From the NCBI RefSeq assembly GCF_988242995.1, contig NZ_OZ547043.1: a stretch of DNA of 64,000 nucleotides; one strand, written 5' to 3'. The first letter of the stretch is position 1. Every line of letters starts with the position of its first letter. Position numbers: made by a program. Of this stretch, positions 60,001 to 64,000 are shown in pieces.

Positions 60001-63000
60001 CATATTCATCCGCTAAACCTCGCCATTGGCGAAGCGGACGCCATCCGCCTGAACGGAGGGCGCGTGTATGAGCTTTCTGCCGTGACGCAGATCCAGCACA
60101 CCACGCCAGCCGTGGTGCGGACTGCCAATGGTCAGGTGACGGCGAAGTATGTGATTGTCGCCGGGAATGCGTATCTGGGCGATAAAGTAGAGCCGGAACT
60201 AGCGAAACGCAGCATGCCGTGCGGCACGCAGGTGATCACCACCGAGCGGCTGTCGGAAGATTTAGCTCGTTCGCTGATCCCGAAAAACTACTGCGTGGAA
60301 GACTGTAACTATCTGCTTGATTACTATCGTCTTACCGCCGATAACCGCCTGCTGTACGGCGGCGGCGTGGTCTACGGCGCGCGCGACCCGGACGATGTTG
60401 AGCGCCTTGTGGTGCCGAAACTGCTGAAAACCTTCCCGCAACTGAAGGGCGTGAAAATTGATTACCGCTGGACGGGCAACTTCCTGCTGACCCTGTCACG
60501 CATGCCGCAGTTTGGTCGCCTCGATACCAACATCTACTACATGCAGGGCTACAGCGGCCACGGCGTCACCTGTACCCACCTCGCCGGGCGTTTGATTGCT
60601 GAACTGCTGCGCGGTGACGCCGAGCGTTTCGATGCCTTCGCCAATCTGCCGCATTACCCGTTCCCCGGCGGGCGCACGCTGCGCGTTCCGTTTACCGCGA
60701 TGGGCGCGGCTTATTACAGCCTGCGCGATCGTCTGGGCGTTTAATTTCCGATTAACAGTGAAGAGTCAAAAGGTGTGAAACATGAGCAACAATGAATTCC
60801 ATCAGCGTCGTCTTTCTGCTACCCCACGCGGGGTTGGCGTGATGTGTAACTTCTTCGCCCAGTCGGCAGAAAACGCTACGCTGAAGGACGTAGAGGGCAA
60901 CGAATACATCGATTTCGCCGCAGGCATTGCGGTGCTGAATACCGGGCATCGCCACCCTGATCTGGTCGCGGCGGTGGAGCAGCAATTGCAACAGTTTACC
61001 CACACGGCGTATCAGATTGTGCCGTACGAAAGCTACGTCACGCTGGCGGAGAAAATTAACGCCCTTGCCCCGGTGAGCGGGCAGGCTAAAACTGCGTTCT
61101 TCACCACCGGTGCGGAAGCGGTTGAGAACGCGGTGAAAATCGCCCGCGCCCATACCGGACGCCCTGGCGTGATTGCGTTTAGCGGCGGCTTCCACGGTCG
61201 TACATATATGACCATGGCGCTGACCGGAAAGGTCGCGCCGTACAAAATCGGCTTCGGCCCGTTCCCCGGTTCGGTGTATCACGTACCTTATCCGTCAGAT
61301 TTACATGGCGTTTCAACGCAGGACTCCCTCGACGCCATCGAACGCTTGTTTAAATCGGACATTGAAGCGAAGCAGGTGGCGGCGATTATTTTCGAACCGG
61401 TGCAGGGCGAAGGCGGTTTCAACGTTGCACCAAAAGAGCTGGTTGCCGCCATTCGCCGCCTGTGCGACGAGCACGGCATTGTGATGATTGCCGATGAAGT
61501 GCAAAGCGGTTTTGCGCGTACCGGCAAACTGTTTGCCATGGATCACTATGCCGATAAGCCGGACTTAATGACGATGGCGAAAAGCCTCGCAGGCGGGATG
61601 CCGCTTTCGGGCGTGGTCGGTAACGCGAATATTATGGACGCGCCCGCGCCGGGCGGGTTGGGTGGTACTTACGCCGGGAACCCGCTGGCGGTGGCTGCCG
61701 CGCACGCTGTGCTCAACATTATCGACAAAGAATCACTCTGTGAACGCGCGAATCAACTGGGCCAGCGCCTGACAAACACGTTGATTGATGCCAAAGAAAG
61801 CGTTCCGGCCATCGCGGCGGTACGCGGTCTGGGGTCTATGATTGCGGCAGAGTTTAACGATCCGCAAACGGGCGAGCCGTCAGCGGCGATTGCACAGAAA
61901 ATCCAGCAACGCGCGCTGGCGCAGGGGCTGCTTCTGCTGACCTGTGGCGCATACGGCAACGTGATTCGTTTCCTGTATCCGCTGACCATCCCGGATGCGC
62001 AATTCGATGCGGCAATGAAAATTTTGCAGGATGCGCTGAACGATTAATAGCCCAACGCAATAATGTCTGATGCGCTGCGCTTATCAGGCCTGCAAACGAC
62101 GTATTGATTATGTATGCCGGACAAAGCATTCTGAACTGCACCCCAAATGTTGGACATAATCTGACATCTGAAGGTGCAGTTTATGAAACATTCATTTGAA
62201 GTAAAACTTGCCGCTGTAAATCATTACCTGGCTGGTCATGCAGGCATCATTTCTACGGCAAAACTCTTTCAACTTTCTCACACCAGCCTCTCACACTGGA
62301 TTAATCTTTTTCTTCTTCACGGTCCTCGGGCACTGGATTGCAGACACAAGCGTAGCTATTCTCCTGAAGATAAACTTTGCGTGGTTCTTTATGCTCTCGG
62401 GCATTCTGAGTCTCTACCCCGGGTAGCTGCCCGGTTTAACATTCCCAGCCACAACACGGTTAAAAACTGGATAAAAGGCTACCGCAAATCTGGTAATGAG
62501 GCCTTTATCAGGCGCAGGAAGGAGAAAAGCATGACCCGTTCTGATGATACCCATGAAAACGAGGCAAACATGACGCCGGAAGAGATGAAGAATGAGCTGC
62601 GTTATCTTCGCGCAGAAAATGCATATCTGAAAGCCATGCAGGAGCATCTCCTGGAAAAAAAGCGCCAGGAGCTGGAGAAAAAACGAAAGTCATCCGGAGC
62701 CTGAGGTGCGGACACTGCCAGTCTGACCTGTTAAAGGCTGCAGGGCTGGCCAGAAGCACGCTGTACTACCAGCTGTCACTGCAGAAGGCTAAGGACAAGT
62801 ATGCTGATGTGAAACAGCTCATAGCCTCCATCTTCCATGAACACCGGGGATGTTATGGGTACCGGCGGATCCATTGTGAGCTTCAGAAAAGAGGTCTTAA
62901 GTTCAGTGGCAAAACGGTGCGAAAACTGATGCAACAGCTCGGCCTGAAGTCTCCTGTGCGCCTGAAGAAATACCGGTCTTACCGGGGAAATATGGGACTC

Positions 63001-64000
63001 GCTGCAGAAAATATCCTTCAGCGGCAGTTCAAAGCGGAAGCTCCCTGTGAGAAATGGGTGACAGATATCACCGAATTCAGGGCTGGCGGACAAAAACTGT
63101 ACCTGTCCCCGATACTTGATTTGTTTAACGGGGAAATCGTGGCGTGGGAAACGGCCTGCAGGCCTACAGAGGAGCTGGTGAAGCGGATGTTAAATAAGGG
63201 GCTGGAAAGCCTTGCTGAAGGGGAGAAACCGCTGCTCCACAGTGATCAAGGATGGCATTACCGGATAAAAAGTTATCAGTCCGCCCTGGCGGACAGAGGG
63301 TTAGTGCAGAGCATGTCGCGCAAGGGCAACTGCCTTGATAATGCGGTAATGGAGAACTTCTTTGGTCACCTGAAAGAAGAAATGTACTATCGCCGGGACT
63401 ACAGAAATGTAGAAGAGCTGGAAAATGCCGTTAACGAATACATAACTTACTGGAATCAAAAAAGAATAAAACTCAGTCTTGGGGGACTCAGTCCGGTAGA
63501 ATACCGGACTGAGCATCAAAAAGCCGGTTAACTGAAACTGTCCAGGTTTTGGGGTTCAGTTCAATTCACGCCGCATCCGGCAAGTTGTATTGCCCAACTT
63601 CGCTAAATCTGGTGCTTTTTCAACAACGCGCGGAACTGATGATAGGTTAACCCCAGTAATTTAGCCGCGCGCTTCTGGTTATATTTCCCTTGTTGCAAAC
63701 TGAGTTGCAGCAACTCTTTTTCCTGCTGCATCTGAAACTCACGTAAATCCAGCGGCAGTGTTGGAAGCGAGGTGGTTTCTGAAACGGCGATAGCGTCTTC
63801 AGGCGGACGCCGTTTAAAGGGATCAATAATAATGTCATCAAGCGGATAATCGCTGGTGCCATGGCGATATACTGAACGTTCCACCACGTTTTTCAATTCA
63901 CGAATATTTCCCGGCCAGCGATAATTCAGCAATGTTTCTCTGGCGCGCTCCGTAAACCCCGGGAACAGAGGCAGCTTGATTTCCCGACACATCTGAATGG

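What the first reader, a model, noticed from the sequence alone, without database searches (positions are those of the whole stretch)
62060..63575. IS3-family element (IS1397-like) inserted into a palindromic unit between puuE and pspF
A 1422-bp element is bounded by imperfect inverted repeats (tgaactgcaccccaaa... and ...ttttggggttcagttca) and a 4-bp direct repeat ATTC. It encodes OrfA and a -1-frame OrfB joined at an A-AAA-AAG slippery heptamer (62656-62662). Removing the element and one ATTC copy reconstitutes an imperfect palindrome (gccggacaaagcATTCacgccgcatccggc) next to another REP-like unit. That target choice is the known behaviour of IS1397, which inserts into BIME palindromic units. 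The right end lies about 50 bp from the pspF stop, convergent to it, so read-through from the IS could run antisense into pspF.
Basis: partly seen in the sequence, partly recalled or inferred. Interest (0 to 1): 0.5.

Follow-up and report, generated by a model that had tools for sequence, protein, structure and literature searches.

The report
IS1397 copy inside a REP hairpin
This is an intact copy of the known E. coli insertion sequence IS1397, sitting in the loop of a repetitive palindromic unit between puuE and pspF, which is where this element is known to insert; it is an ordinary strain-specific polymorphism.

Summary
The element is window 62132-63563, which is 1432 bp rather than 1422. 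It has 25-nt terminal inverted repeats (21/25, TG...CA ends) and a 4-bp target duplication, ATTC. Deleting the element and one ATTC copy gives a sequence identical over 165 bp to the uninterrupted puuE-pspF spacer of E. coli 042. The right end lies 39 nt from the pspF stop, not about 50.

The element is 100% identical to chromosomal copies that RefSeq names 'IS3-like element IS1397 family transposase'. It is 99.0% identical to the CFT073 copy that the literature calls IS1397. The OrfAB fusion predicted from a -1 slip at A-AAA-AAG (62656-62662) exists residue for residue in NCBI under that name.

In 15 distinct insertion sites sampled from other genomes, every copy sits at the apex of a palindromic unit, with a 2-4 bp duplication and in either orientation. 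None of 5,426 complete E. coli genomes has puuE-IS1397-pspF. Four genomes that lack the puu genes carry an independent IS1397 insertion in the same palindromic unit.

Antisense read-through into pspF is possible, since no terminator was predicted, but it is untested. Verdict: a known element showing known behaviour, of low interest.

The parts
60782..62047 (+). puuE (4-aminobutyrate transaminase), the left neighbour, intact
   Evidence: 421-aa ORF. It is colinear with annotated puuE of E. coli 042.
62065..62093 (+). Short GCCTGAT-type palindromic unit (Z2-like) of the BIME: GTCTGATGCGCTGCGCTTATCAGGCCTGC, untouched by the insertion
   Evidence: Read directly from the sequence. The type assignment rests on the PU consensus recalled from the literature, not on a tool result.
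62112..62131 (-). Left half of the split GCCGGAT-type (Y-like) palindromic unit, GTATGCCGGACAAAGCATTC, ending in the left copy of the target duplication
   Evidence: Joined to 63568-63582, it gives a hairpin-forming unit identical to the E. coli 042 allele.
62128..62131 (.). Target-site duplication, left copy (ATTC)
62132..63563 (+). IS1397, complete, 1432 bp
   Evidence: 100% identical over 1432 bp to chromosomal copies annotated as IS1397 family. 99.0% identical to the CFT073 copy.
62132..62156 (+). Left terminal inverted repeat (IRL), starting with TG
62132..62183 (+). Predicted RNA hairpin in which the IS tip (62132-62142) pairs with GGUGCAGUUUA (62173-62183). It covers the Shine-Dalgarno sequence and the A of the AUG, and it can form only in transcripts that enter from puuE.
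   Evidence: MFE -25.7 kcal/mol, z = -4.64, 0 of 200 shuffles as stable. The functional reading is inference.
62183..62704 (+). orfA (173 aa, helix-turn-helix DNA-binding protein)
   Evidence: Pfam HTH_28, HTH_Tnp_1 and HTH_29. The exact sequence is on more than 1000 contigs.
62656..62662 (+). Slippery heptamer A-AAA-AAG for the -1 programmed frameshift. An AGGAG lies 11 nt upstream, at 62640-62644.
   Evidence: Sequence. The fusion built from a slip here equals the NCBI protein exactly. RefSeq annotates a programmed frameshift in identical copies.
62662..63531 (+). orfB frame (-1 relative to orfA). Together with 62183-62662 it encodes the 449-aa OrfAB transposase.
   Evidence: Pfam HTH_21, rve and rve_2. 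NCBIfam IS3 transposase, 387 bits against a cut-off of 160. Catalytic residues D295, D355 and E391.
63487..63513 (.). Perfect 12-bp hairpin with a 3-nt loop inside the 3' end of orfB, with no T-run after it on either strand
   Evidence: Inverted repeat I5. It appears in the fold. It was not reported as a terminator.
63539..63563 (+). Right terminal inverted repeat (IRR), ending with CA
63564..63567 (.). Target-site duplication, right copy (ATTC)
63564..63582 (-). Right half of the split Y-like palindromic unit (ATTCACGCCGCATCCGGCA)
63603..64000 (-). pspF 3' part, convergent with the IS; the gene runs off the end of the window
   Evidence: ORF 63603-63992. It matches annotated pspF of E. coli 042.

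Best explanation
The feature is a complete and apparently functional copy of insertion sequence IS1397 (IS3 family). It has transposed into the apical loop of a GCCGGAT-type palindromic unit (REP) of the BIME that lies between the convergent genes puuE and pspF in an E. coli chromosome.

Shown here:
- The exact boundaries, the 25-nt inverted repeats and the 4-bp ATTC duplication.
- Perfect reconstitution of the natural empty site.
- Intact orfA and orfB with an A-AAA-AAG slippery site, whose -1 fusion product is the annotated 449-aa IS1397 transposase.
- A consistent preference of this IS for palindromic-unit apexes in 15 of 15 other sites.

Inferred from what is known of the IS3 family:
- OrfAB, made by -1 ribosomal frameshifting, is the DDE transposase, and OrfA alone acts as a regulator.
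- The element moves by copy-out-paste-in through a circular intermediate.
- The transposase itself reads the palindromic unit as its target, as reported for IS1397 and ISKpn1 in work cited in PMC1525189.
- A hairpin between the IS tip and the ribosome-binding site keeps read-through transcripts from puuE from being translated into transposase.

Neither flanking coding sequence is disrupted.
For: Boundaries, repeats and duplication. The empty site is identical to E. coli 042 (165/165 across the junction, 863/865 overall), and 4,276 of 5,426 genomes carry the uninterrupted arrangement at >=80% coverage. Identity of the element: 100% over 1432 bp to copies annotated 'IS3-like element IS1397 family transposase', and 99.0% to the CFT073 copy named IS1397 in PMC1525189. 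Coding capacity: Pfam HTH plus rve, NCBIfam IS3 at 387 bits against a cut-off of 160, D295/D355/E391, and the exact 449-aa fusion in NCBI on 71 contigs. Target preference: 15 distinct sites, all at palindromic-unit apexes, with duplications of 2-4 bp and both orientations. Two units were each hit twice independently: pspF (window against L001) and the mntH locus (L007 against L013). Hairpin over the ribosome-binding site: -25.7 kcal/mol, z = -4.64.
Against: Nothing contradicts the identification. There are four limits. The ISfinder reference sequence and the primary IS1397 papers could not be consulted, so identity rests on RefSeq naming and on a copy named in a secondary paper. Activity of this particular copy is inferred from its intactness, not shown. 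The IS's own promoter (-35 TGAACT, -10 CATAAT, 17-nt spacer) was picked by eye and falls below the threshold of the scan. The structure predicted downstream of the slippery site is not significantly more stable than shuffles (z = -1.64).
Confidence: 0.97

Rival explanations
1. The element is a different IS3-family member that only resembles IS1397 and has no palindromic-unit specificity, so its position in a REP is coincidence.
For: The ISfinder reference was not available for direct comparison.
Against: It is 100% identical to RefSeq-labelled IS1397 copies and 99.0% identical to the CFT073 copy called IS1397 in PMC1525189. All 15 sampled sites lie at palindromic-unit apexes, which chance cannot explain because these units occupy a small fraction of the genome.
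Confidence: 0.01
2. The copy is an inactive relic (pseudogene) fixed at this locus, not a recently mobile element.
For: Some IS1397 copies are degenerate. The CFT073 copy has a 5-nt deletion and is annotated as frameshifted. Of the 3,485 genomes with any match, 1,707 have a place covering >=80% of the element, so about half have partial matches only.
Against: This copy has both repeats, a perfect duplication, uninterrupted orfA and orfB, and the canonical A7G run. Its DNA is 100% identical to a copy at another locus in another strain. Its transposase sequence is identical on 71 contigs. The insertion is absent from all 5,426 complete genomes in this context, which argues for a recent event.
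Confidence: 0.03
3. Besides being a mobile element, the insertion changes host gene expression. Transcription leaving the IS right end runs antisense into pspF, and/or splitting the palindromic unit removes a 3' stabiliser or terminator shared by the convergent puuE and pspF transcripts.
For: No intrinsic terminator is predicted on the + strand between the orfB stop (63531) and pspF (63603). The half unit left beside pspF can no longer form its hairpin. Only 39 nt separate the IS end from the pspF stop.
Against: There are no expression data. Native promoters of IS3-family elements are generally weak (general knowledge), and the one here is a poor consensus match. A 12-bp perfect hairpin at 63487-63513 could take over as a 3' barrier for pspF transcripts. 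Both coding sequences are intact.
Confidence: 0.12

Closest known systems
IS1397 (IS3 family; E. coli; Bachellier/Clement/Wilde/Hofnung work cited in PMC1525189)
   Same: The sequence is 99-100% identical to copies carrying this name. The element is 1432 bp with 25-nt inverted repeats, orfA and orfB joined by an A6G frameshift, and a 3-4 bp duplication. It is inserted in the loop of a BIME palindromic unit.
   Different: Nothing of substance. Only the locus is particular: puuE-pspF was not occupied in this context in any of 5,426 complete E. coli genomes.
ISKpn1 (IS3 family, Klebsiella pneumoniae)
   Same: It is the other IS3-family member reported to insert into palindromic units, with specificity attributed to the transposase (PMC1525189).
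   Different: It is a different element, with a different host and a different type of palindromic unit. No sequence comparison was made here.
IS911 / IS150 / IS3 (paradigm IS3-family elements)
   Same: They share the two-ORF layout, the -1 frameshift on A-AAA-AAG, the DD(35)E rve catalytic core, TG...CA ends and 3-4 bp duplications. The NCBIfam IS3 model scores 387 bits.
   Different: These elements show little target specificity, whereas IS1397 is restricted to palindromic units.
IS621 and other IS110-family REP-targeting elements (ISPpu9, ISPa11)
   Same: They also insert site-specifically in REP sequences (PMC1525189).
   Different: They belong to an unrelated transposase family (DEDD, IS110), have no terminal inverted repeats and work by a different mechanism. 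One such element was seen nested inside an IS1397 copy in L011.

Membership tests
IS3 family | Transposase matches the family model (HTH N-terminus plus rve DDE core) | tested here: met
   NCBIfam NF033516 scores 387.2 bits against a cut-off of 160. Pfam finds HTH_28/HTH_Tnp_1 in OrfA and HTH_21, rve and rve_2 in OrfB. D295, D355 and E391 are present, with 35 residues between the second D and the E.
IS3 family | Two consecutive, partly overlapping ORFs, with orfB in the -1 frame, fused by programmed -1 frameshifting at an A6G-type slippery site | tested here: met
   orfA is 62183-62704 and the orfB frame is open over 62662-63531 in the -1 phase. A-AAA-AAG lies at 62656-62662. The predicted fusion equals the annotated protein exactly. 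Frameshifting itself was not measured.
IS3 family | Imperfect terminal inverted repeats ending 5'-TG...CA-3' | tested here: met
   The repeats are 25 nt with 21/25 matching; the element starts with TG at 62132-62133 and ends with CA at 63562-63563.
IS3 family | Short (3-4 bp) target-site duplication | tested here: met
   ATTC appears on both sides, and removing one copy restores the E. coli 042 allele exactly.
IS3 family | Copy-out-paste-in transposition through a circular intermediate | not testable with these tools
   Needs PCR for circle junctions or in vivo assays.
IS1397 | Near-identity (ISfinder convention: more than 95% nucleotide identity) to the reference element | tested here: met
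   Tested by proxy only. The element is 100% identical to RefSeq copies named IS1397 family and 99.0% identical to the CFT073 copy called IS1397 in PMC1525189.
IS1397 | Insertion into the central loop of an enterobacterial palindromic unit | tested here: met
   The window copy splits GCCGGACAAAGC-ATTC-ACGCCGCATCCGGC at its apex. The same position (GAAC/GTTC) is used in L017 and L019, and 15 of 15 distinct sites are at palindromic-unit apexes.
IS1397 | Transpositional activity and transposase-determined target choice | not testable with these tools
   Reported in papers that could not be read here (PMC94167, PMC169884); only cited through PMC1525189.
BIME / REP palindromic units | Imperfect palindrome of about 30-35 bp of GCC(G/T)GATG...CATC(C/A)GGC type in an intergenic position, often paired in opposite orientations | tested here: met
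   The reconstituted unit folds as a hairpin (-7.5 kcal/mol, weaker than the -9 to -13.4 of the other 14 sampled units) and shares their outer-stem sequence. A second unit lies at 62065-62093 in the opposite orientation. The Y/Z2 typing rests on consensus sequences recalled from memory.

The most novel reading that the evidence does not exclude
The insertion may not be neutral. It splits the REP hairpin shared by the convergent puuE and pspF transcripts and places an unterminated, outward-reading transposase gene 39 nt from the pspF stop. This could alter pspF mRNA stability or create antisense RNA, and so retune the phage-shock (Psp) envelope-stress response in this lineage. The fact that the same palindromic unit was hit independently in four puu-less genomes could then reflect selection rather than only target preference.
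Probability: 0.07. Interest if true: 0.35.

Novelty: already known. Interest (0 to 1): 0.1.

Why it matters
It matters little beyond annotation. The call is a clean, fully resolved example of IS1397 and its preference for palindromic units, and it marks a strain-specific polymorphism at puuE-pspF that could serve as a typing marker. The survey made here extends the published picture slightly: Tobes and Pareja (2006) had only two genomic copies to look at. Here all 15 sampled sites lie at palindromic-unit apexes, both orientations occur, and two units were hit twice independently. Any effect on pspF or puuE expression is speculative.

Tried and rejected
1. I tried to read the primary IS1397 papers (PMC94167, PMC169884, PMC95333, PMC135288). 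None is held, so the element's published properties are taken from citations in PMC1525189 and from my own memory, and are marked as such.
2. PMC3333891 and PMC2817692 mention IS1397 only in their reference lists.
3. I looked for a stimulatory RNA structure downstream of the slippery site. The fold of 62663-62760 is not significantly better than shuffles (z = -1.64), so no claim is made.
4. The consensus promoter scan found no + strand promoter in IRL. It found one outward, - strand hybrid site at 62135->62107 (9/12), but the region's count of 2 is no higher than the shuffle mean of 1.4, so I do not count it as evidence.
5. I looked by eye for a junction promoter that would form when IRR and IRL abut in a circle. 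Only 3/6 hexamer matches appeared, so this was dropped.
6. A PDB sequence search with the transposase gave no hit.
7. A second IS1397 copy in the window was sought and not found.
8. The Rfam and tRNA scans found nothing in or next to the element.
9. Metagenome and genome-collection scans were not run, because the look-up of encoding contigs already gave enough independent insertion sites.

Full report
**1. What is in the sequence**

Reading 61700-64000 and listing ORFs shows puuE ending at 62047 on the + strand and the 3' part of pspF on the - strand, with its stop codon ending at 63603.

Between them lies an element bounded by TGAACTGCACCCCAAATGTTGGACA (62132-62156) and its imperfect complement TGTCCAGGTTTTGGGGTTCAGTTCA (63539-63563). 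These repeats are 25 nt with 21/25 matching, and they form the top-ranked inverted pair in the region. The left repeat occurs once in the window, against 0 expected by chance.

ATTC flanks the element on both sides, at 62128-62131 and 63564-63567. The element is therefore 62132-63563, which is 1432 bp. The distance from the right end to the pspF stop is 39 nt rather than about 50.

**2. Proof that it is an insertion**

I removed 62132-63567 (the element plus one ATTC) and searched the joined flanks against 5,426 complete E. coli genomes.
- 4,276 genomes carry the uninterrupted arrangement at >=80% coverage. The best match 865 of 865 positions without gaps at 99.8% identity and are annotated puuE | pspF.
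- Against E. coli 042 the junction region is identical at 165 of 165 positions. The only two mismatches in 865 lie inside pspF.
- The intergenic spacer is 119 bp in 042 and 1555 bp here, which equals 119 + 1432 + 4.

This settles the boundaries and the 4-bp duplication.

**3. What the element is**

- The 1432 bp match chromosomal copies at 100% identity over their full length (for example strain SCU-102, between msrQ and zinT). RefSeq annotates these as 'IS3-like element IS1397 family transposase', with a programmed frameshift.
- 3,485 of 5,426 genomes have some match, and 1,707 have a place covering >=80% of the element. Almost all places are chromosomal.
- The CFT073 copy between yaeF and nlpE is the one shown as IS1397 in a REP by Tobes and Pareja 2006 (PMC1525189). 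It is 99.0% identical to the window copy but carries a 5-nt deletion and is annotated as frameshifted.
- OrfA (62183-62704, 173 aa) has helix-turn-helix domains. The -1 frame product has HTH_21, rve and rve_2.
- The NCBIfam IS3 transposase model scores 387 bits against a cut-off of 160. The catalytic residues are D295, D355 and E391.
- The heptamer A-AAA-AAG is at 62656-62662, with AAA-AAG in the orfA frame. An AGGAG lies 11 nt upstream.
- Fusing residues 1-160 of OrfA to the -1 frame from 62662 gives a 449-aa protein. That exact sequence is in NCBI, on 71 contigs, as an IS1397 family transposase. The RefSeq CDS span of 1349 nt in identical copies equals 62183-63531 here.

The copy is therefore complete and has no disabling mutation.

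**4. The target**

The reconstituted site reads GTATGCCGGACAAAGCATTCACGCCGCATCCGGCA. On the - strand this is a GCCGGATGCGGCGTGAA..GCTTTGTCCGGCATAC unit, that is, a GCCGGAT-type (Y-like) palindromic unit. It faces a short GCCTGAT-type unit at 62065-62093 (GTCTGATGCGCTGCGCTTATCAGGCCTGC) across an 18-nt linker. This is a small BIME. The type names come from consensus sequences I recall, not from a tool.

To test target preference directly, I collected other copies through the exact OrfAB and OrfA proteins and through BLAST hits, then extracted their flanks.
- All 15 distinct sites (the window plus 14 others) lie at the apex of a palindromic-unit hairpin.
- Duplications are 3 or 4 bp, with one apparent 2 bp.
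- The IS occurs in either orientation relative to the unit, 7 against 8 by hand inspection.
- In Y-type units the duplicated bases are GAAC/GTTC (L017, L019). The window's ATTC is the same position in a variant unit.
- The window's unit is the weakest hairpin of the set, at -7.5 kcal/mol against -9 to -13.4.

**5. How common is this particular insertion**

No complete genome has puuE-IS1397-pspF. Four genomes (H31-H34) have IS1397 next to pspF, but in a context where the puu cluster is deleted down to a 3' stub of puuE.

In those four, the IS is in the same palindromic unit and the same orientation. However, it has a 3-bp duplication (TTC), the unit differs in sequence, and the IS differs at 10 positions. 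That makes it an independent event.

A second unit, near mntH, is occupied in opposite orientations with different duplications in L007 and L013. Recurrent hits on the same unit fit strong target specificity.

**6. Likely mechanics (inference unless stated)**

As an IS3-family element, it should make OrfA by normal translation and the OrfAB transposase by -1 frameshifting. It should move by copy-out-paste-in.

A strong predicted RNA hairpin pairs the first 11 bases of the IS (62132-62142) with GGUGCAGUUUA (62173-62183). This covers the Shine-Dalgarno sequence and the first base of the AUG. Its energy is -25.7 kcal/mol, z = -4.64, and 0 of 200 shuffles fold as well.

A plausible own promoter, picked by eye, has -35 TGAACT at 62132-62137, a 17-nt spacer and -10 CATAAT at 62155-62160. 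It would start transcripts downstream of the left arm. Only transcripts reading in from puuE would then form the hairpin. This is the classical way insertion sequences avoid activation by outside transcription. That promoter is below the threshold of the scan.

No significant structure was found downstream of the slippery site.

**7. Effect on neighbours**

Both coding sequences are intact. On the + strand no intrinsic terminator is predicted between the orfB stop (63531) and pspF.

The split unit can no longer serve as a 3' hairpin for either convergent mRNA. A perfect 12-bp hairpin inside the end of orfB (63487-63513) might substitute for pspF transcripts. None of this can be tested without expression data, and I rate a real regulatory effect as unlikely.

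**8. Verdict**

This is IS1397 itself doing what IS1397 is known to do. It is already known and of low interest, and its only particular feature is a rare, probably recent, strain-specific location.

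Noticed in passing
window 39289-47185: A 7.9-kb segment absent from E. coli 042, where about 0.7 kb containing ycjD lies between fabI and sapF. It encodes a TetR-like regulator (39544-40209), a membrane-fusion protein (40325-41479), a 1035-aa RND pump (41479-44586), an outer-membrane factor (44590-45963) and an MFS transporter (45972-47135). 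The functions are judged from the ORF translations only.
   Followed up: partly
window 14332-15895: A 1.56-kb segment between rluB and cobO replaces 38 bp of E. coli 042. It holds a 340-aa ORF with a lipoprotein-like signal (14500-15522) and a 102-aa ORF (15535-15843). It was not characterised.
   Followed up: no
window 1-1142: The start of the window does not align to the E. coli 042 region, which carries a prophage next to an ompW remnant at that point. Colinearity begins at 1143.
   Followed up: no
L004-L009, at the position equivalent to window 62655-62661: The A7 run of the slippery site is A8 in one assembly (L004, 1433-bp IS), which would fuse orfA and orfB in frame. It is A6 in five assemblies (1431 bp). 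All length differences among the copies fall in this run. Homopolymer errors in long-read assemblies are the likeliest cause, but real on/off variants are not excluded.
   Followed up: partly
L011 3562-4935; L012 about 3456 onward: An IS110-family element (DEDD transposase, about 1.37 kb) is nested inside an IS1397 copy in L011, at IS position 1115/1116. In L012 another copy is truncated at position 1006, next to the same kind of element.
   Followed up: partly
L001 (E. coli EC12) 2901-4626, and H32-H34: Four genomes lack the whole puu cluster: ymjA is followed by a 108-bp puuE 3' stub. They carry an independent IS1397 insertion (duplication TTC) in the same palindromic unit next to pspF.
   Followed up: yes
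L022 (E. coli CFT073, yaeF-nlpE): The CFT073 IS1397 copy discussed in the literature is a pseudogene, with a 5-nt deletion at the position equivalent to window 62746-62750.
   Followed up: yes
window 62107-62135, - strand: An outward-facing promoter-like site has its -35 (TTCAGA) spanning the IS tip and the target duplication, and its -10 (CATAAT) in the BIME linker. It matches 9/12, which is not above chance for the region. It would read antisense into puuE.
   Followed up: no
window 9571-9664 (-) and 23629-23831 (+): Rfam matches to the Trp operon leader and the enterobacterial sRNA STnc180. Both fit the trp-to-psp region of an E. coli chromosome.
   Followed up: no
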